Assembly: GCA_963422365.1 (NCBI GenBank)
Contig: OY729426.1
Location: 864,001-928,000 of the forward strand
Direction of reading: 5' to 3'
Length of the DNA stretch: 64,000 nt
From: Nitrospirales bacterium
GTDB taxonomy: Bacteria; Nitrospirota; Nitrospiria; Nitrospirales; UBA8639
Both the position numbers and the translations under genes were made by a program. This document shows, piece after piece, positions 2,810 to 18,373 of the stretch (positions within the stretch are counted from its first letter, which is position 1; the number at the start of each line of letters is the position of its first letter). Under the pieces are notes generated by a model. That model was not told the origin of the DNA, made no database searches, and saw nothing but the letters and a program-made list of their open reading frames with translations.

Positions 2810-3264
2810 TTGCCGCGTATCATGCCGGCTACGTCGTCGATGCCTCTGTCGGAGTGAAATGGGTTGTTCGGAAACGGGAAGCCGATCGTGAAGCCACCTT
2901 GTTTTTGAGACAACATTATATAAAAGAAGAACGCGATTGATGGTGCGGAACGATTTCTGTTGGAAGTGCCCAACGCCATCAAACCCAGCGGAAAGGTCAC
3001 GAAAAAAGTATTGGCCTGCTCACGACACTGGCCGACCTGGAGATGCAGGTGGAACGACATACTTACGCCGTGCTGCGGAAGGCCAATGCCGTTGCGTGGG
3101 CCTACAACCTCACGTGGTACGACGCCGTCTACGTGGCCCTGGCCCCGAGATTGTAGGATTCCCCTGTGTCAGGGGCAGATGAAGCACTGCTCCGAAAAAT
3201 GAAAGGTCACAGCATCGTGCTCAGGATCAAGGAATTGGCGTTTCAATACCATGTCTTATCTTAA
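2806..3264 (+). pseudogene. PIN-domain (VapC-like) toxin pseudogene
   Basis: Pieces in different frames: YVVDASVGVKW, FLLEVPNAI, NLTWYDAVYVALA, ADEALLRK. These are PIN-domain motifs broken by frameshifts. Confidence 0.75.
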
Positions 3265-5494
3265 GATGCCTTCAACGCAATCAAAACGCTACCTAGCGCA
3301 TGTTCGTCAAAAGGATGGCGTTTCTTTTGAGGAGCATGATCTGGAAAAACATTTGCGTGAAGTTGCCAGGGGTGCTGAAAAATTCTCCGAAAATTTTGGA
3401 AGCTCGGATTGGGGATTTCTTGCAGGGTTGTGGCATGACCTGGGGAAATATAGCGTGGAATTTCAGCGTTACATCAAGTCCGTGTCTGGTTACGACGCCG
3501 AAGCACATCTTGAAGGGCCAGTTGGTCGAGTTGACCACTCGACGGCTGGGGCACAGTACGCAGTAGACCAATTCGGGCTACATGGTCGGATATTAGCGTA
3601 TCTCATTGCCGGCCATCACACCGGACTGCCAGATTGGCACACAAGTGAAACCGCAGGCACGGCGTTAAAAGTACGCTTGGACGATAGCAGTCATTTGAAA
3701 CGTACCCTCAGCCAGGCAATTCCTCCCGAGATTCTTTCTCAACCGAAACCGACCAGCGCCCTGCTCGGCAAGGCTGGGGGCTTCGCCTTGTGGGTACGCA
3801 TGTTGTTTTCGTGTCTGGTGGATGCGGATTTTCTCGATACCGAAGCATTTATGGACATGGACAAGGCGGCGCAGCGGATCAATACTCCGACGCCCACGGA
3901 CTTGCTGCCGCGTTTCAATACCTACATGGAAGAGCAATTTTCACACGCTCCACCTACGCGCGTGAATCATATCAGAGCCAGAGTGCTCCAGCAGTGCCGG
4001 AATAAGGCCCATGAAGCGCCGGGGATGTTTTCGTTGACCGTTCCTACTGGCGGCGGCAAAACACTGTCAAGTCTTGCCTTTGCTCTGGAACATGCGGCTA
4101 TCCATGGAAAGCGGCGGATTATTTATGCCATTCCCTATGCCAGCATTATTGAGCAAACCGCAAACGTTTTCCGGGACATATTCCCCGATTCGGTGATCGA
4201 ACACCACAGCAACCTCGACCCCGATAAGGAAACAGCAAAAAGTCGTTTGGCAACAGAAAATTGGGATGCACCCGTGATCGTGACCACCAACGTCCAGTTC
4301 TTCGAGTCGCTATTTGCCGCCAAGACGAGTCGTTGCCGCAAATTGCACAACATCGTGGATAGTGTTGTTATATTGGATGAAGCCCAGCTATTGCCGCCCG
4401 AGTTTCTGCAACCGATTCTCGATGTGATGAATCTGCTGGTCCGTCACTACGGCGTGACCTTCGTATTATCGACGGCCACCCAACCGGCGCTGGGCACATT
4501 AAAAACTTTTCAGCAGACAATTCGTGGTCTTGACCATATGCGCGAAATCATTGACGACCCAGATACATTGTATCGTGACCTGGAGCGCATTGCCGTTTCC
4601 ATTCCGGACGACTTCCGGCAACCGCAGAATTGGGACGAAATCACGCGGCAAATCTTGCAGCATTCGTCTGTCCTCACGGTGGTCAACTCCCGCGCTGACG
4701 CGCGTGAACTGCACCAACATATGCCTGAGGGGACCATACACTTGTCGGCCCTTATGTGTGGAGAGCACCGCTCGCGTGTCATTATCGATATCAAACAGCG
4801 ATTGCGTGCTGGTGAAGCTGTACGCGTAGTGAGTACGCAGTTGGTAGAGGCAGGGGTTGATGTGGATTTTCCCGTGGTGTACCGCGCACTCGCGGGGCTG
4901 GATTCGATCGCGCAAGCCGCCGGCCGCTGTAACCGTGAGGGCAAGCTGGAACGCGGTGAAGTGATTGTGTTTGTCCCGCCTAAACCCGCACCGCCGGGTC
5001 CTCTGCGGCGTGCTGCGGAGACGACCGTCTCGTTGCTGTCAGGGTCTTCCGACCACACACTGATGCCGGACTTGTTCTCTCTCTACTTCAAGCATTTCTA
5101 TAGTAAGCAATCGCTCGACACACATGGCATCACCGACTTACTTACGCCCCAGGGAGGTAACGACGATCCGTTGAAAGTGCAGTTTCGTACCGCGGCCCAG
5201 CGTTTCCGGCTCATTGACGAGTCGGGCTATCGCAGCATCCTGGTACGGTATGGCGACAGTCCGGGATTGCTTGGCCGTTTGCAGAAAAAAGGGCCGGAGC
5301 GCTGGCTGATGCGTAAACTCCAGCGCTACACCGTATCCCTGCCGGAATATCAATTCCAAAAATTGCTGGCCAGCGGCGACGTATCTGAAATCTATTCCGG
5401 CATATTTGCGCAGACTGCGGACGTGCTGTATCACCTACAGCTTGGGATATTGTTGGACGACGTCAACCCCGATCCGAGCGATTTGATTAGTTAG
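3251..5494 (+). CDS. cas3: CRISPR-associated HD nuclease-helicase Cas3 (type I-C)
   Basis: LWHDLGK HD motif, GHHTGL, LVDADFLDT, Walker A PTGGGKT, DEAQ, SAT and QAAGRCNR. Confidence 0.97.
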   Translation: MSYLKMPSTQSKRYLAHVRQKDGVSFEEHDLEKHLREVARGAEKFSENFGSSDWGFLAGLWHDLGKYSVEFQRYIKSVSGYDAEAHLEGPVGRVDHSTAGAQYAVDQFGLHGRILAYLIAGHHTGLPDWHTSETAGTALKVRLDDSSHLKRTLSQAIPPEILSQPKPTSALLGKAGGFALWVRMLFSCLVDADFLDTEAFMDMDKAAQRINTPTPTDLLPRFNTYMEEQFSHAPPTRVNHIRARVLQQCRNKAHEAPGMFSLTVPTGGGKTLSSLAFALEHAAIHGKRRIIYAIPYASIIEQTANVFRDIFPDSVIEHHSNLDPDKETAKSRLATENWDAPVIVTTNVQFFESLFAAKTSRCRKLHNIVDSVVILDEAQLLPPEFLQPILDVMNLLVRHYGVTFVLSTATQPALGTLKTFQQTIRGLDHMREIIDDPDTLYRDLERIAVSIPDDFRQPQNWDEITRQILQHSSVLTVVNSRADARELHQHMPEGTIHLSALMCGEHRSRVIIDIKQRLRAGEAVRVVSTQLVEAGVDVDFPVVYRALAGLDSIAQAAGRCNREGKLERGEVIVFVPPKPAPPGPLRRAAETTVSLLSGSSDHTLMPDLFSLYFKHFYSKQSLDTHGITDLLTPQGGNDDPLKVQFRTAAQRFRLIDESGYRSILVRYGDSPGLLGRLQKKGPERWLMRKLQRYTVSLPEYQFQKLLASGDVSEIYSGIFAQTADVLYHLQLGILLDDVNPDPSDLIS

Positions 5495-5504
5495 GCTTGA
5501 AGAC

Positions 5505-5533
5505 TTGACATGAGCTAAGTGTGATTCTATATT
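5505..5533 (+). promoter_or_regulatory. Sigma70-type promoter of the cas5-cas8c-cas7 operon
   Basis: TTGACA (5505-5510), 17 nt, TATATT (5528-5533); predicted start near 5540. Confidence 0.8.
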
Positions 5534-5548
5534 AATTTTCATTGTCTT

Positions 5549-5626
5549 ATAGCACTATTTCAGTGAGGATTGAAACCATTGTCTTATAGCACCTGACCTC
5601 CACTCAGTCCTTGGATGAGTGGAGGT
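5549..5626 (+). ncRNA. Putative crRNA-like regulatory RNA (mini-repeat + 16-nt guide + hairpin)
   Basis: CACT-atttc-AGTG mini stem followed by AGGATTGAAAC (5566-5576, identical to the last 11 nt of the array repeat). Then cattgtcttatagcac (5577-5592, identical to 5540-5555) and an 11-bp perfect stem 5596-5606/5616-5626. Confidence 0.7.
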
Positions 5627-5642
5627 TAAGTCGGGAGGACCA

Positions 5643-6368
5643 ATGAAAACCTATTGTCTTGAAGTCAGGGGTGACTTCGCCTGCTTCACACGACCTGAAA
5701 TGAAAGTCGAGCGCGTCAGCTATGACGTGATGACACCCTCGGCGGCTCGGGCCATTTTTGAGGCGATTCTCTGGAAACCGGCGATATGCTGGCAGGTGAG
5801 CAGGATCGAGGTGCTCAGCCCCATCAAGTGGATCAATCTGAGACGTAATGAAGTCGGTGGTGTTGCTTCGACGCGCAATATCGAAAGCGCGATGAGGTCC
5901 GGCACGGGGCAACTGGGCATGTATATAGAGGACGAGCGTCAACAGCGTGCTGGGTTGTTGCTGCGCGACGTGAGATACCGTCTCCATGCGTCGTTTGAGT
6001 TGCGCGACCCCAGCGTGCATAAGACGAATTTTCCACATCTAAGCAAACGAACGGTGAATGCTGGCGAGACCGATATGGATAACGAGCCGAATCAGGCAGT
6101 GAAATTCATGACGATGTTCGAGCGCCGTGCAAGTAAAGGGCAGTGCGTGAATCAGCCATATCTGGGCTGCCGGGAGTTTGCGGCGGATTTTTGGCTCGTG
6201 GAGCCGGGAGATTCACCAGCGCAACCGATCTCCGAGACACGCGAGTTGGGCTATATGCTGTATGACCTGGACTATCGTAGCCCCGCCACTCCCCCCCCGC
6301 TCTTTTTTCGAGCCAGCTTGATGAACGGCGTGCTCAACGTTCCGACCTGGGAGGAGGTGCGAGGATGA
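5643..6368 (+). CDS. cas5c: Type I-C Cas5 (Cas5d), crRNA-processing Cascade subunit
   Basis: GDFACFTRPEMKVERVSYDVMTPSAARAIFEAILWKP and QPYLGCREF; GGAGG RBS at 5634-5638 favours ATG 5643. Confidence 0.95.
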   Translation: MKTYCLEVRGDFACFTRPEMKVERVSYDVMTPSAARAIFEAILWKPAICWQVSRIEVLSPIKWINLRRNEVGGVASTRNIESAMRSGTGQLGMYIEDERQQRAGLLLRDVRYRLHASFELRDPSVHKTNFPHLSKRTVNAGETDMDNEPNQAVKFMTMFERRASKGQCVNQPYLGCREFAADFWLVEPGDSPAQPISETRELGYMLYDLDYRSPATPPPLFFRASLMNGVLNVPTWEEVRG

Positions 6369-11182: not shown

Positions 11183-14100
11183 GTAGCGCCCACCTTTCGA
11201 GGTGGGCGAGGATTGAAACTCCGCACAAAAGGCGATGACGTCGGCATCATGTTCCGTAGCGCCCACCTTTCGAGGTGGGCGAGGATTGAAACGGGCAGAC
11301 ATTGTGGCCGTATTGACGGAATTCCGATTGTAGCGCCCACCTTTCGAGGTGGGCGAGGATTGAAACAAGAATTTTACAAATAACAAGAAAAACAAAAATG
11401 TAGCGCCCACCTTTCGAGGTGGGCGAGGATTGAAACTCCTCGCCCGTGCGCTATGCCTCTGGTGAGCAGCGTAGCGCCCACCTTTCGAGGTGGGCGAGGA
11501 TTGAAACGAAGAGCTCATCGCCGCCCGGCGGCACCGCCACAACGTAGCGCCCACCTTTCGAGGTGGGCGAGGATTGAAACAGCGTGGCCGCCACGCTACC
11601 AGACAAAACAAGTATCGTAGCGCCCACCTTTCGAGGTGGGCGAGGATTGAAACACGTCATCATTGAGCCGTGCCGTATTGATCGAGCGTAGCGCCCACCT
11701 TTCGAGGTGGGCGAGGATTGAAACTCGATCCCCGGCGCAATGCCGGCGAGGATCGACAGTAGCGCCCACCTTTCGAGGTGGGCGAGGATTGAAACTTTTT
11801 GGCGCCGAGCGAACGCGGCGGACAAAATAGTAGCGCCCACCTTTCGAGGTGGGCGAGGATTGAAACAGTCTGTCGCCCGCGCTCTGATGCGCGATGATGC
11901 GCGTAGCGCCCACCTTTCGAGGTGGGCGAGGATTGAAACTCAAAACGCAAGCAACGATAAGCCGGCGAACAACAGTAGCGCCCACCTTTCGAGGTGGGCG
12001 AGGATTGAAACATGTGCCCGAAGGAGAACGCGAATATGTCGCGTCAGTAGCGCCCACCTTTCGAGGTGGGCGAGGATTGAAACATCGCGCCGCACGAGTT
12101 GCTGTGCCGCGTGTACCGTAGCGCCCACCTTTCGAGGTGGGCGAGGATTGAAACATTTTTTCGCCGACGTCGGTGTTGCGCGAGGCCGAGGTAGCGCCCA
12201 CCTTTCGAGGTGGGCGAGGATTGAAACCAAAACCGTGCGGGACTTCACGGCGCGGGTGTTCCGTAGCGCCCACCTTTCGAGGTGGGCGAGGATTGAAACA
12301 CCGGTCACCTCCGGCAAAAATATCGAGATCTCCGGTAGCGCCCACCTTTCGAGGTGGGCGAGGATTGAAACTAGATCGCGGGCGTGGCGGCATCTCCGCC
12401 TCTTGCGTAGCGCCCACCTTTCGAGGTGGGCGAGGATTGAAACATCCACCAATCCCAAGAGCCGCATCTCATATGTGGTAGCGCCCACCTTTCGAGGTGG
12501 GCGAGGATTGAAACAGACTTGGCGGACGACCGTGCAATCCGGCGGCGCCGTAGCGCCCACCTTTCGAGGTGGGCGAGGATTGAAACGCGCTCTCCCTCTG
12601 GCACGTCGAGATCATCCATCGTAGCGCCCACCTTTCGAGGTGGGCGAGGATTGAAACGCCAATGCGAAAGCCCAGGCCTGGTGGCGCGTGCGGTAGCGCC
12701 CACCTTTCGAGGTGGGCGAGGATTGAAACAAAAAAATCGTGCACGATACATTTTTATCGATCTCGTAGCGCCCACCTTTCGAGGTGGGCGAGGATTGAAA
12801 CTATTTTTCCCAATTTGGGTGAGCGAAAAAATATTGTCGTAGCGCCCACCTTTCGAGGTGGGCGAGGATTGAAACTAAAAAGTGAATACCATTTAATCCT
12901 CTCGCCCGATCGTAGCGCCCACCTTTCGAGGTGGGCGAGGATTGAAACGAGAGCTCGCCGGTTTGCCCCACCGGCCGGCGGTCGTAGCGCCCACCTTTCG
13001 AGGTGGGCGAGGATTGAAACGACCAAGCATGGTACGATCAAAAACGCGCGGCCGCGTAGCGCCCACCTTTCGAGGTGGGCGAGGATTGAAACAGATTGTG
13101 ACTCAATCGTCGGATCCAATCCCTCAAAGTAGCGCCCACCTTTCGAGGTGGGCGAGGATTGAAACTGGTACGTCGAGATCATCCATCATGCGATTGATCG
13201 TAGCGCCCACCTTTCGAGGTGGGCGAGGATTGAAACAACAGGGCCGGGCGGGCGGAGGCCGCGAGGAACACCGTAGCGCCCACCTTTCGAGGTGGGCGAG
13301 GATTGAAACACTTTTGTCCCGACGGCCGCTGCGGCAATGCTATTGTAGCGCCCACCTTTCGAGGTGGGCGAGGATTGAAACCTTGATGGCCTCCGGCACC
13401 GCGGAGGCTGACACGAGTAGCGCCCACCTTTCGAGGTGGGCGAGGATTGAAACGTCTGGGGCAATCCGTGCTCTTCGGAGGGCTGTCCAGTAGCGCCCAC
13501 CTTTCGAGGTGGGCGAGGATTGAAACCTCGCAGCGCGCCTTTCCTGGTGTCCCACAGCGCCGTAGCGCCCACCTTTCGAGGTGGGCGAGGATTGAAACGG
13601 ATCCATTTAAATCCTCGCCGCACTGGCACAGTGTAGCGCCCACCTTTCGAGGTGGGCGAGGATTGAAACACGACCGCGCAAATCGAGATGATCACCGCAC
13701 TCAGGGTAGCGCCCACCTTTCGAGGTGGGCGAGGATTGAAACACACAAGCACTCGCCGGCAATACCGCGATCCTTATTGTAGCGCCCACCTTTCGAGGTG
13801 GGCGAGGATTGAAACGTTGCTTGGCCTCGATGCCGGCAAAGCCAAGGATAGTAGCGCCCACCTTTCGAGGTGGGCGAGGATTGAAACCAGAGCCCGGCGA
13901 GAGCCACCCAAATGTATCCTTGGTAGCGCCCACCTTTCGAGGTGGGCGAGGATTGAAACTTAAATGCGAAAGCCCAGGCCTGGTGGCGCGTGCGGTAGCG
14001 CCCACCTTTCGAGGTGGGCGAGGATTGAAACATCGTCTCTCGGGCGCTCACCGTATCATGCAGATGTAGCGCCCACCTTTCGAGGTGGGCGAGGATTGAA

Positions 14101-17100
14101 ACACGGTGTTTCGGGTGGTGGGGCGGAAAAAATAAAAAGTAGCGCCCACCTTTCGAGGTGGGCGAGGATTGAAACCCTAGAGAGATACCCTAATGGCAAA
14201 ACTACTTATAGTAGCGCCCACCTTTCGAGGTGGGCGAGGATTGAAACTGAATAGCGCCTGATCATAATCGCGGCTGGTCTCAAGTGTAGCGCCCACCTTT
14301 CGAGGTGGGCGAGGATTGAAACTACCACCAGCGTCGCCGCGCCGCATGGGTTGACAGTAGCGCCCACCTTTCGAGGTGGGCGAGGATTGAAACATACTCG
14401 CCGTGGCCGTTGACCTCGGCGACCAAAGTAGCGCCCACCTTTCGAGGTGGGCGAGGATTGAAACATTAACAACAACGATGGGTCCCCGAGCCGCACGCAG
14501 TAGCGCCCACCTTTCGAGGTGGGCGAGGATTGAAACCCCCGCTGGTGGCGGTGCGGAACAGCCCGAGGGTGGTAGCGCCCACCTTTCGAGGTGGGCGAGG
14601 ATTGAAACTATGTGGACCGCCGCTGGGACGGCACGCAGCTCTTGTAGCGCCCACCTTTCGAGGTGGGCGAGGATTGAAACGGCAAATCCGGACGCGATGT
14701 GATGGGCTCAGCCTCGTAGCGCCCACCTTTCGAGGTGGGCGAGGATTGAAACCAATCCGGCGGCGCCAATGTGTCGGCCTCGCGCGAGTAGCGCCCACCT
14801 TTCGAGGTGGGCGAGGATTGAAACGGGTGCAAGATGAGATTAATCGCAAGCGCCATGGGGTAGCGCCCACCTTTCGAGGTGGGCGAGGATTGAAACTCCC
14901 ACGCACCCTGATCGCGATACTCGATCACAGCATGTAGCGCCCACCTTTCGAGGTGGGCGAGGATTGAAACGAGCAATTGGCCCTCCTCGCCGCCGAGGCG
15001 GTGCCGCGTAGCGCCCACCTTTCGAGGTGGGCGAGGATTGAAACGCGTAATGCGCCGAGTGGGAGCGCTCGTGCACGATGTAGCGCCCACCTTTCGAGGT
15101 GGGCGAGGATTGAAACGTGGCATCCTGATACACATATGATTGCAGGATGAGCGTAGCGCCCACCTTTCGAGGTGGGCGAGGATTGAAACTGCACTAGCCG
15201 CCGGCGTGGCCGATCCGCCGATGGGTAGCGCCCACCTTTCGAGGTGGGCGAGGATTGAAACGTTTGCGCGTGGCGCTCACGCGCACGGCATTGATCGTAG
15301 CGCCCACCTTTCGAGGTGGGCGAGGATTGAAACATCTCGGTCGTGACCTCCTCGTAGCTGGCGAGCGGTAGCGCCCACCTTTCGAGGTGGGCGAGGATTG
15401 AAACCAGGAGCTCCGCGAGGCCAGCCCCGTGGATACGGGGGTAGCGCCCACCTTTCGAGGTGGGCGAGGATTGAAACACCGTCCGTGCCCGGCTCCCCGC
15501 GATTGGCGAGTAGTAGCGCCCACCTTTCGAGGTGGGCGAGGATTGAAACTCCTCCTTGCGTCCGTCATGAGAGGCTGAGGCACGCGTAGCGCCCACCTTT
15601 CGAGGTGGGCGAGGATTGAAACCGATCTCGGTGCGAGTAGATAAATTTATCCATGTCGTAGCGCCCACCTTTCGAGGTGGGCGAGGATTGAAACGCGCCC
15701 CAGTTGATGGTGATCGATTGCATGTTGGGCGTAGCGCCCACCTTTCGAGGTGGGCGAGGATTGAAACGCAATCGAGGCAATCGCCACAGCCGGCCTGATG
15801 ATGTAGCGCCCACCTTTCGAGGTGGGCGAGGATTGAAACATCGTTAGCATTGCAACCATTGTTTTTATGATTATCGTAGCGCCCACCTTTCGAGGTGGGC
15901 GAGGATTGAAACGCGGCATCGGCGCGCCGCCGAATCTCACCGATGCCGTAGCGCCCACCTTTCGAGGTGGGCGAGGATTGAAACTTGCAAAAAATCGAAA
16001 GCCACGAAAAGCTATGCTGTAGCGCCCACCTTTCGAGGTGGGCGAGGATTGAAACCGCGAGAGATGAGCCGGGCGGCCCGCACCAGGCGAAGTAGCGCCC
16101 ACCTTTCGAGGTGGGCGAGGATTGAAACGCGTCGATGCCAGGTTGGACGAGGCGTGGAAAGAGAGTAGCGCCCACCTTTCGAGGTGGGCGAGGATTGAAA
16201 CATGTGATCAAATTTAGCATCAATAATTTTTTGCGGTAGCGCCCACCTTTCGAGGTGGGCGAGGATTGAAACCGAGATCCCATTCCGCTGGCGGCAATAT
16301 TTGGCCTGTAGCGCCCACCTTTCGAGGTGGGCGAGGATTGAAACAGCGCAAACGCCGTTGCCCGCGTGGTGAAAATCGGATGTAGCGCCCACCTTTCGAG
16401 GTGGGCGAGGATTGAAACTCCGCGACGGGAGGCGCGGCGGCTTGCCTTAGCCGGTAGCGCCCACCTTTCGAGGTGGGCGAGGATTGAAACCAAGCTGGTC
16501 GCGCACGGAGGCAGGCGCTCAGCCATCGTAGCGCCCACCTTTCGAGGTGGGCGAGGATTGAAACGAGAAGATAGAGGCCACGCTGGGCGTGATCCCTGAG
16601 TAGCGCCCACCTTTCGAGGTGGGCGAGGATTGAAACAGGTCCATCAGCAGGCATCTGTGCACGGATGGCCGCGTAGCGCCCACCTTTCGAGGTGGGCGAG
16701 GATTGAAACAAAAATCCTGTTGCCGACCACGAGCCCCGCGAGCGCCGTAGCGCCCACCTTTCGAGGTGGGCGAGGATTGAAACCACTGTTGCCCGGCATT
16801 GGCGGCGATCGAGCTGTAGTAGCGCCTACCTTTCGAGGTGGGCGAGGATTGAAACACTACGCCGGACAGCACGAGCACCCTCACGCTCGAGGTAGCGCCC
16901 ACCTTTCGAGGTGGGCGAGGATTGAAACATGGCATTCATTCTCAGCAGTTCATTTGTTCCGGAGTAGCGCCCACCTTTCGAGGTGGGCGAGGATTGAAAC
17001 ATGGATACTCTTACCTATCATCATGAGCCAACTGGCGTAGCGCCCACCTTTCGAGGTGGGCGAGGATTGAAACGGTAGACTTCGGACGAGACCAATCGAT

Positions 17101-18373
17101 CTGATCAAGGTAGCGCCCACCTTTCGAGGTGGGCGAGGATTGAAACTTGAGCGGCAGATCCATCTCTATCGTAAGCCACAGTGTAGCGCCCACCTTTCGA
17201 GGTGGGCGAGGATTGAAACAACGGCCACGGCGAGTATGCCATGACCACTGTGAGCGTAGCGCCCACCTTTCGAGGTGGGCGAGGATTGAAACATACCTGG
17301 TGCCTGTGCCGCTTACGGTGATCGCCGGTAGCGCCCACCTTTCGAGGTGGGCGAGGATTGAAACCGAGCCATCCGCGCACTGGATCACCACGCGCTGGCG
17401 TAGCGCCCACCTTTCGAGGTGGGCGAGGATTGAAACTCGCCGCCGGTGCTGGCGGATCAGGAGGCGCCGGGTAGCGCCCACCTTTCGAGGTGGGCGAGGA
17501 TTGAAACTATACGTACACCAACCTATTCTCTTGGCGCAGGAAGTAGCGCCCACCTTTCGAGGTGGGCGAGGATTGAAACCGATTGATTCCGGTTTTTCTC
17601 CTTTCAGCGGATACGTAGCGCCCACCTTTCGAGGTGGGCGAGGATTGAAACAAAGCTGATCTCGCGGCCGGCCTCGCGCTGCGGCGTGTAGCGCCCACCT
17701 TTCGAGGTGGGCGAGGATTGAAACAAGCGCCGAGAGATCGACTCCTGGCTGCTCAGCCCGTAGCGCCCACCTTTCGAGGTGGGCGAGGATTGAAACCGCG
17801 ACCGCCGGCCGGTGGGACAAACCGGTGAGCGTAGCGCCCACCTTTCGAGGTGGGCGAGGATTGAAACCTCGGCCGCACAGCCAATGGCTGCATCCACAGC
17901 ATCGTAGCGCCCACCTTTCGAGGTGGGCGAGGATTGAAACAAAGCTGATCTCGCGGCCGGCCTCGCGCTGCGGCGTGTAGCGCCCACCTTTCGAGGTGGG
18001 CGAGGATTGAAACAAGCGCCGAGAGATCGACTCCTGGCTGCTCAGCCCGTAGCGCCCACCTTTCGAGGTGGGCGAGGATTGAAACCTCGGCCGCACAGCC
18101 AATGGCTGCATCCACAGCATCGTAGCGCCCACCTTTCGAGGTGGGCGAGGATTGAAACAGTTTCGGGGCCGAGGATTTCCTGGCGCGCGACCTCGTAGCG
18201 CCCACCTTTCGAGGTGGGCGAGGATTGAAACGCAAAGAGGGTCACACACAACATAAGATGTTGAGGTAGCGCCCACCTTTCGAGGTGGGCGAGGATTGAA
18301 ACCGCGACCGCCGGCCGGTGGGACAAACCGGTGAGCGTAGCGCCCACCTTTCGAGGTGGGCGAGGATTGAAAC
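11183..18373 (+). CRISPR. CRISPR array, 37-bp repeat GTAGCGCCCACCTTTCGAGGTGGGCGAGGATTGAAAC, about 100 repeats and 99 spacers of about 33-38 nt (manual count)
   Basis: Near-invariant repeat with a 9-bp stem and TTCG loop ending in ATTGAAAC. The leader lies next to cas2, so the array reads on the + strand. Confidence 0.99.

What the first reader, a model, noticed from the sequence alone, without database searches (positions are those of the whole stretch)
5505..5645. Self-contained crRNA-like autoregulatory cassette in the 5' leader of the Cascade operon
Seen: a consensus promoter (TTGACA-N17-TATATT) whose predicted +1..+16 region, cattgtcttatagcac (5540-5555), recurs exactly at 5577-5592. The second copy directly follows AGGATTGAAAC, the last 11 nt of the array repeat, and that handle directly follows a mini stem CACT-atttc-AGTG, as it follows the stem in the real repeat. 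After the guide comes an 11-bp perfect hairpin (5596-5626), then the cas5 RBS. The promoter copy is preceded by TTT (TTC if shifted one base), whereas the guide copy is preceded by repeat-derived AAC. Established: type I-C Cas5d cuts at the stem base leaving an 11-nt 5' handle, the I-C consensus PAM is 5'-TTC, short guides let Cascade bind without Cas3 cleavage, and crRNA-like repressors (CreA/CreR, scaRNA) exist in other systems. Inference: Cas5 processes its own mRNA leader into a short guide that sends Cascade back onto its own transcription start. Target, mini-repeat and guide would all sit within about 55 bp of one transcript, and the circuit would de-repress when anti-CRISPRs or excess crRNA titrate Cascade.
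Basis: partly seen in the sequence, partly recalled or inferred. Interest (0 to 1): 0.92.

Follow-up and report, generated by a model that had tools for sequence, protein, structure and literature searches.

The report
Self-silencing CRISPR guide in Cascade leader
A 150-base stretch in front of a bacterial CRISPR gene cluster most likely makes a short guide RNA that sends the CRISPR complex back to block its own start site; this is an unusually compact version of a self-throttling circuit already known from other CRISPR systems.

Summary
Between cas3 and cas5c of an intact type I-C locus lie a near-consensus promoter, a 16-nt target behind TTT, a degenerate repeat ending in the array's 11-nt handle, an identical 16-nt guide and an 11-bp hairpin. 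Two homologues turned up (L022, L023). In both, guide and target differ only at positions 6 and/or 12, which Cascade does not pair; positions 7 and 10 change in both copies together; L023 has the canonical TTC PAM. This supports a crRNA-like autorepressor (CreR/crlRNA) of the cas5-8-7-4-1-2 operon (about 0.72); no step is shown experimentally. What differs is geometry: sense strand, no cargo between target and repeat, target at the predicted start site and overlapping the pseudo-repeat (3 of 152 cas5c loci). Caveats: only three, related examples; the window's repeat stem is weak; 16 of 19 close relatives lack the cassette; no RNA data.

The parts
3251..5494 (+). cas3 (HD + helicase), upstream of the cassette
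   Evidence: TIGR01587 and TIGR01596 over cut-off
5505..5510 (+). -35 hexamer TTGACA
   Evidence: identical in L022 and L023
5528..5533 (+). -10 hexamer TATATT (predicted; TACATT in L023, unclear in L022)
5537..5539 (+). PAM TTT (TTT in L022, TTC in L023)
   Evidence: TTT/TTY accepted by other I-C Cascades
5540..5555 (+). DNA target (protospacer) over the predicted start site; its distal half is the 5' part of pseudo-repeat 1
5549..5576 (+). pseudo-repeat 1: shortened repeat, stem CACT/AGTG (or CATTG/CAGTG) ending at 5565, then handle
5566..5576 (+). 11-nt 5' handle AGGATTGAAAC; predicted Cas5c cut at 5565/5566
   Evidence: GTGAGGATTGAAAC 14 of 14 identical in all three cassettes
5577..5592 (+). 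guide (spacer-like), 16 of 16 match to target
5596..5626 (+). 3' hairpin, 11 bp + 9-nt loop (5607-5615, nt 42-50 from the handle start)
   Evidence: arms shared with L023, a different weaker stem at the same place in L022
5633..5638 (+). ribosome-binding site GGGAGG of cas5c
   Evidence: sequence
5643..6368 (+). cas5c, first gene of the cas5c-cas8c-cas7-cas4-cas1-cas2 run (to 11003)
   Evidence: TIGR01876, 01863, 02589, 00372, 03640, 01573 over cut-off
11183..18373 (+). CRISPR array, 100 repeats of 37 nt, 99 spacers

Best explanation
A CreR-type autorepressor of the type I-C Cascade operon, written into the operon's own 5' leader. (1) RNA polymerase starts near 5540 (inferred from consensus). 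(2) Cas5c recognises the short stem and single-stranded handle of pseudo-repeat 1 and cuts at 5565/5566 (inferred from known Cas5c chemistry). (3) A crRNA-like RNA of about 48-50 nt (handle, guide, 5' arm of the hairpin) is loaded into Cascade (inferred by analogy with I-C crlRNAs); the cas5c ribosome-binding site lies 3' of the hairpin and survives either cut. (4) Cascade reads the TTT/TTC PAM just behind the -10 box, pairs 14-16 nt with the template strand over the start site and blocks initiation; the partial R-loop should not license Cas3. (5) More crRNA or anti-CRISPR proteins draw Cascade away and relieve repression. Shown here: the anatomy, its conservation in three loci, and a substitution pattern typical of Cascade pairing. 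Steps 1-5 are inferred.
For: Three homologous cassettes (window; L022, same genus; L023, Ca. Entotheonella) keep TTGACA, a TTY PAM, the 14-nt repeat end and the guide-target match, while the 17 nt after the -35 box are only 5-9 of 17 alike and cas5c third positions 60-68 of 100. Within the first 14 guide positions all 3 guide-target mismatches are at 6 or 12 (L022: 12; L023: 6, 12), and the changes at 7 (C/C vs T/T) and 10 (A/A vs G/G) occur in both copies; post hoc chance that the two unmirrored columns are exactly 6 and 12 is 1/91. The promoter site is the only PAM-flanked match of 11 or more positions for this guide in the genome. A stem ends at the cut site in window and L022. The 3' loop falls at nt 41-50, where I-C crlRNAs end in bioRxiv 2024.12.27.630466. 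TTT is recognised by X. albilineans and L. pneumophila I-C, TTY by N. lactamica I-C. Cas3 is recruited to the full R-loop.
Against: No RNA or biochemical data. Only three related examples; the statistic is post hoc, and L022 was picked by a score that ignores positions 6 and 12. 16 of the 19 loci in the same Cas5 clade lack the cassette (gap 9-17 bp), including the window's sister L016 (100/97 support), so it is dispensable. The window's productive stem is weak (-2.3 kcal/mol) and for starts at 5540-5541 a fold that hides the handle is preferred (-4.3; productive pair probability 0.14-0.18, but 0.93 for a start at 5537). In L023 the best stem ends 2 nt short of the cut site. The -10 box is poor in L022. 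Half of the match is repeat-derived, and perfect identity in the window could reflect recent copying. PAM inference from overlapping spacers was inconclusive (TTC 2 of 7). The Cas8c PAM loop aligns with a gap (TSG against SGS).
Confidence: 0.72

Rival explanations
1. Cargo-lost toxin/defence control unit: the guide's main job was to repress a small gene placed behind it (CreTA/CrePA or CRISIS logic); window and L023 lost the gene and any cas repression is what remains.
For: L022 has the same cassette followed by a 67-codon Cys-rich ORF before cas5c; the ORF has two full-length relatives at 76% identity, so it is probably a real gene. Several antisense repeat units in related loci also sit with a short ORF before cas5c.
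Against: No Pfam match and no evidence of toxicity for the ORF. Two of three cassettes have no cargo and still keep the pairing pattern, in different phyla. In CRISIS the cargo lies between target and repeat, not behind the repeat. Mechanistically this rival still represses cas5c.
Confidence: 0.13
2. Non-functional relic: a local 37-nt tandem duplication at a decayed repeat next to a promoter, kept alike by copying, with no regulation (or once functional and now decaying in the window's genome).
For: 37-nt period; distal half of the match is repeat against repeat; weakest stem of the three is the window's; most relatives lack it; the two newest array spacers are self-derived, as seen when CreA repression is lost in H. 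hispanica.
Against: Copying does not explain mismatches confined to 6/12, a kept TTY PAM, or 14 of 14 handle conservation amid diverged flanks. Stems of 3-6 bp are usual among the 12 antisense repeat units found.
Confidence: 0.09
3. RNA-level control only: Cas5c cuts its own mRNA leader, and the duplicated segment is an RNA switch (one strand pairing with either copy), with no DNA targeting.
For: In L023 the strand ATCAATGG pairs with the target copy or, in the full leader, with the guide copy; in the window a competing hairpin hides the handle.
Against: The switch is not conserved (L022 folds the productive stem with probability 0.99); PAM and the 6/12 pattern are DNA-targeting signatures.
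Confidence: 0.06

Closest known systems
Type I-C solitary repeat unit crlRNAs of CRISIS/Nezha/Gabija loci (bioRxiv 10.1101/2024.12.27.630466)
   Same: Repeat unit directly before cas5c; hairpin + 11-nt handle; about 16-nt match with free positions 6 and 12; 3' hairpin whose loop falls at nt 48-50; PAM-flanked target at a promoter between cas3 and cas5c.
   Different: There the target precedes inserted defence genes and lies 37-46 bp upstream of their start site, PAM TTC or TTA. Here no gene lies between target and repeat, the target is 6-8 nt downstream of the predicted -10 box, overlaps the pseudo-repeat, and the PAM is TTT or TTC.
CreR Cas-regulating RNAs (bioRxiv 10.1101/2023.03.10.532045) and regulatory mini-arrays (PMC10120712)
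   Same: Degenerate mini-CRISPR, 5' handle conserved, partial match plus PAM at the cas effector promoter, no toxin needed; I-C elements listed as predictions (Fig. S7, image not seen).
   Different: Tested cases are I-B, I-E, V-A (and I-F1). Mini-arrays examined in PMC10120712 are transcribed opposite to cas3, as are 12 of the 16 plausible units in my survey. Here guide and target are 37-42 nt apart on the sense strand, in one predicted transcript with cas5c.
CreTA / CrePA (bioRxiv 10.1101/2024.01.05.574328, passages)
   Same: crRNA-like guide repressing a promoter inside a type I cas locus; L022 variant carries a small ORF under the same promoter.
   Different: No toxin gene in the window or L023; the L022 ORF is uncharacterised and lies downstream of the guide.

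Membership tests
CreR / type I-C crlRNA | Degenerate repeat keeping the array's 5'-handle sequence | tested here: met
   11 of 11 to the array repeat; 14 of 14 among three cassettes
CreR / type I-C crlRNA | Hairpin directly 5' of the handle | tested here: inconclusive
   4-5 bp stem ends at 5565 but is weak and has a competing fold; clear in L022; 2 nt short in L023
CreR / type I-C crlRNA | Partial, PAM-proximal guide-target match with free 6th/12th positions | tested here: met
   16/16; L022 mismatch at 12; L023 at 6 and 12
CreR / type I-C crlRNA | Subtype-correct PAM at the target, not at the guide copy | tested here: met
   TTT, TTT, TTC against AAC; TTT/TTY accepted in other I-C systems; own PAM preference not established
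CreR / type I-C crlRNA | Target in or next to the effector-operon promoter | tested here: met
   6 nt behind a predicted -10 box, 103 nt before the cas5c ATG; promoter itself only predicted
CreR / type I-C crlRNA | Cascade-dependent mature RNA and repression with compensatory rescue | not testable with these tools
   no RNA holder listed
CRISIS | Non-cas defence genes between target and repeat unit | tested here: not met
   target and guide are 37 nt apart; 148-bp gap has no room for a gene
CRISIS | Target 37-46 bp upstream of the start site | tested here: not met
   target lies downstream of the predicted -10 box; no other promoter-like site called between 5540 and 5643; start site not mapped
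CreTA / CrePA | Toxin gene under the repressed promoter | tested here: not met
   none in the window's gap; L022 has an uncharacterised 67-aa ORF

The most novel reading that the evidence does not exclude
A minimal one-piece feedback device: a spacer or duplication taken from the leader-repeat junction makes the same bases serve as start-site DNA target and as the 5' part of the repeat that Cas5c cuts, so every Cascade mRNA that is processed releases its own repressor guide, and competing folds of the leader set the gain. This would show how such regulators arise in one step and that start-site occlusion from inside the operon's own leader is a natural I-C control mode.
Probability: 0.35. Interest if true: 0.65.

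Novelty: new variant of a known kind. Interest (0 to 1): 0.45.

Why it matters
It would be a directly testable case of cargo-free type I-C Cascade autorepression, which I found predicted but not tested in the papers read. It shows the smallest layout for such a circuit (about 120 bp from -35 box to hairpin) and hints at an origin by one local event. It is a ready design for self-limiting I-C expression. The principle itself (crRNA-like guides repressing cas promoters and sensing crRNA load or anti-CRISPRs) is established, which caps the surprise.

Tried and rejected
Metagenome pattern scan for handle + hairpin arm: 15 hits, 0 cassettes (14 array spacers, 1 lone match with no cas gene found). 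Viral scans: exact handle+guide 0 hits; degenerate pattern 2 hits, both without target or repeat; Cas5c relatives 0: no viral mimic found. BLASTN of the leader: 1 of 17 genomes around G062 (G062 itself), 1 of 301 in the own class (self only; 34 of the 37 other genus members were drawn, and I did not see whether G034 was among them); plasmids none. Pattern search in 88 genomes around G850: 1 hit, no repeat context. RNA evidence: no RNA holder listed; only contigs could be laid, the RNA-guess run covered 4 of 30 bins and not the cassette: no evidence either way. PAM from overlapping spacers: 7 overlaps among 809 spacers, inconclusive; self-matching spacers have non-TTY flanks. Terminator reading of the 3' hairpin: not called, no T run. 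Shifted TTC PAM: rejected, L023 has TTC in register. Mismatch tally in the 13 other units (19 of 31 at 6 or 12) is partly circular because the detector ignores 6/12 and forces 1-5, so it is not used as support. Three survey hits (L083, L085, L086) were dropped as AT-rich matches inside cas3. No structure or complex prediction was run.

Full report
Locus. The window holds a complete type I-C system: cas3 3251-5494, then cas5c 5643-6368, cas8c, cas7, cas4, cas1, cas2 (to 11003), each over its NCBIfam cut-off, and an array of 100 repeats of 37 nt at 11183-18373. Genomes of the same genus carry records titled Nitrospirales bacterium and Nitrospira sp.. Cas5c and Cas8c match solved I-C Cascade chains (8g9t, E 7e-59 and 6e-142; that these are the Neisseria lactamica complex is recalled).

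Observation. The 16-mer occurs only twice in the 2.5-Mb genome, and the 12-mer GAGGATTGAAAC only here and in the array. None of 2000 shuffles of the gap gave a repeat over 13 nt. One addition: positions 10-16 of both copies resemble the 5' end of this repeat family. The cassette is therefore 9 nt + shortened repeat (5549-5576), then the same 9 nt + a second, more decayed repeat-like hairpin: a degenerate mini-array whose target overlaps its first repeat.

Homologues. A scan of genome contigs with Cas5c gave 80 loci (best 80 of 99). Two carry the same cassette: L023 (Ca. Entotheonella, gap 168 bp) and L022 (same genus as the window, gap 401 bp). Target/guide pairs: window TTT CATTGTCTTATAGCAC / CATTGTCTTATAGCAC; L022 TTT CATTGATTTATAGCAC / CATTGATTTATTGCAC; L023 TTC CATTGATTTGTAGCTA / CATTGTTTTGTTGCGC. 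In the first 14 positions all three mismatches are at 6 or 12, positions that do not pair in Cascade according to bioRxiv 2024.12.27.630466. Positions 7 and 10 change in guide and target together. The repeat end is 14 of 14 identical and TTGACA is invariant, whereas the 17 nt behind it are 5-9 of 17 alike and cas5c third positions 60-68 of 100. The post hoc chance for the 6/12 pattern is 1/91, on three related loci.

RNA structure. The 3' hairpin is strong in window and L023 (-23.6, -24.6 kcal/mol) and replaced by a weak 6-bp stem in L022 (-3.8); the loops fall at nt 41-50 from the handle, matching the 48-50-nt crlRNAs that end in the loop of a 3' hairpin in the CRISIS paper. A stem ends exactly at the cut site in L022 (probability 0.99) and, with the handle held single-stranded, in the window (-2.3). 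The window, however, prefers a fold that hides the handle when the RNA starts at 5540-5541 (productive 0.14-0.18; 0.93 from 5537), and L023's stem ends 2 nt short. Cas5d recognises the stem base and the 3' overhang and leaves an 11-nt tag (PMC5965381), so processing is plausible but may be inefficient here. This is the weakest link.

PAM and targets. TTT is recognised by the X. albilineans and L. pneumophila I-C systems (bioRxiv 2021.10.18.464778) and N. lactamica specifies TTY (bioRxiv 2023.08.05.552134). I could not establish this Cascade's own PAM (TTC 2 of 7 spacer overlaps; Cas8c loop TSG aligned with a gap). With 6 and 12 free, the promoter site is the only TTN-flanked match of 11 or more positions in the genome.

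How common is the layout? Pooling loci gave 152 non-redundant cas5c loci with at least 300 nt upstream (of 156). The detector found 19 hits and none in coding controls: 3 compact sense cassettes (this family), 12 antisense units with TTC targets 46-322 nt from the guide, 1 sense unit with an opposite-strand target, and 3 dropped as AT-rich matches inside cas3. So repeat-unit regulators before cas5c are fairly common in I-C (16 of 152), and the sense, start-site layout is rare (3 of 152) and confined to one Cas5c clade. One antisense unit (L164) is also compact, with its target overlapping the repeat's 5' flank. In the Cas5c tree (31 of 32 rows, L039 dropped for a short translation) the three carriers lie in a 19-row clade (100/99) whose other 16 members have gaps of 9-17 bp; the window's sister L016 (100/97) lacks the cassette. 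Repeated loss or recombination of the leader are both possible; the backbone is unresolved.

Mechanism. Most likely (0.72): Cas5c cuts the leader, the guide loads into Cascade, and Cascade occupies the start site through a 14-16-nt R-loop, too short for the full R-loop to which Cas3 is recruited. crRNA excess and anti-CRISPRs would relieve it, as shown for CreR (bioRxiv 2023.03.10.532045). All steps are inferred. Rivals: a control unit for a small cargo gene, lost here (0.13; L022 has a 67-codon ORF with two 76% relatives); a relic (0.09); RNA-only control (0.06). Origin, speculative: a tandem duplication, or a spacer acquired at the PAM from the leader-repeat junction, would each give this 37-nt period.

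Relation to what is known. It works like CreR and has the RNA anatomy of the I-C crlRNAs. It meets the sequence criteria for CreR and fails those for CRISIS (no cargo, target not 37-46 bp upstream of the start) and CreTA (no toxin in the window). Liu et al. state that creA-like elements exist in I-C with targets adjoining effector promoters, many without toxin. Literature searches returned no paper whose read parts describe a guide overlapping its own target in the cas5c leader, but I could not see the figures or supplements of the bioRxiv papers, and subscription journals are not covered. Read: 2024.12.27.630466 parts 1-2 of 6 plus passages; 2023.03.10.532045 parts 1-4 of 6 plus passages; PMC10120712 passages and section 22; passages only of 2024.10.29.618823, 2024.01.05.574328, 2021.10.18.464778, PMC8482600, PMC5965381, 2023.08.05.552134. 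Two earlier notes of this scan describe I-C repeat-unit autoregulators in other genomes; a look-up by this sequence found none.

Verdict. Real feature, probably functional, a new architectural variant of a known regulatory kind. Interest 0.45.

Noticed in passing
window 11220-11255 and 11293-11329: The two leader-proximal spacers match the own chromosome perfectly (C1:633852-633887, in an ORF that looks like argininosuccinate synthase by recall; C1:691110-691146), with 5' flanks AGG and AAT, not a TTY PAM. Tolerated self-spacers; could hint at loose control of cas1-2-4.
   Followed up: partly
L022 8757-8960: 67-codon Cys-rich ORF between the cassette and cas5c; no Pfam match; two full-length relatives at 76% identity with six invariant cysteines. 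Candidate CRISPR-regulated cargo.
   Followed up: partly
L035, L043, L049, L050, L061, L067 (cas3-cas5c gaps of 327-1030 bp): Antisense solitary repeat units with TTC-flanked targets; in several, a short hydrophobic-looking ORF ends just before cas5c: possible CreTA-like modules in I-C loci of betaproteobacteria.
   Followed up: partly
L062, L079, L091, L164, L169, L185, L207: Further repeat units with TTC targets upstream of cas5c in other lineages; L164 has a compact 46-nt guide-target distance.
   Followed up: no
window 5406-5494 (reads laid): In three DNA runs a 265-nt contig with 12 differences matches the cas3 end and continues into letters resembling the stretch before the -35 box of L022/L023: a possible fourth cassette; only 30 letters visible, not in the loci held.
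   Followed up: partly
G000 C1:768946-772900 (outside the window): A second repeat-rich stretch behind a Cas4/Cas1-like ORF; it shares 28 nt with window spacer 51, so probably a second CRISPR array of another type.
   Followed up: no
window 17614-18373: Duplicated blocks of spacers near the distal end of the array (e.g. 17614-17805 with 17903-18094, 99%).
   Followed up: no
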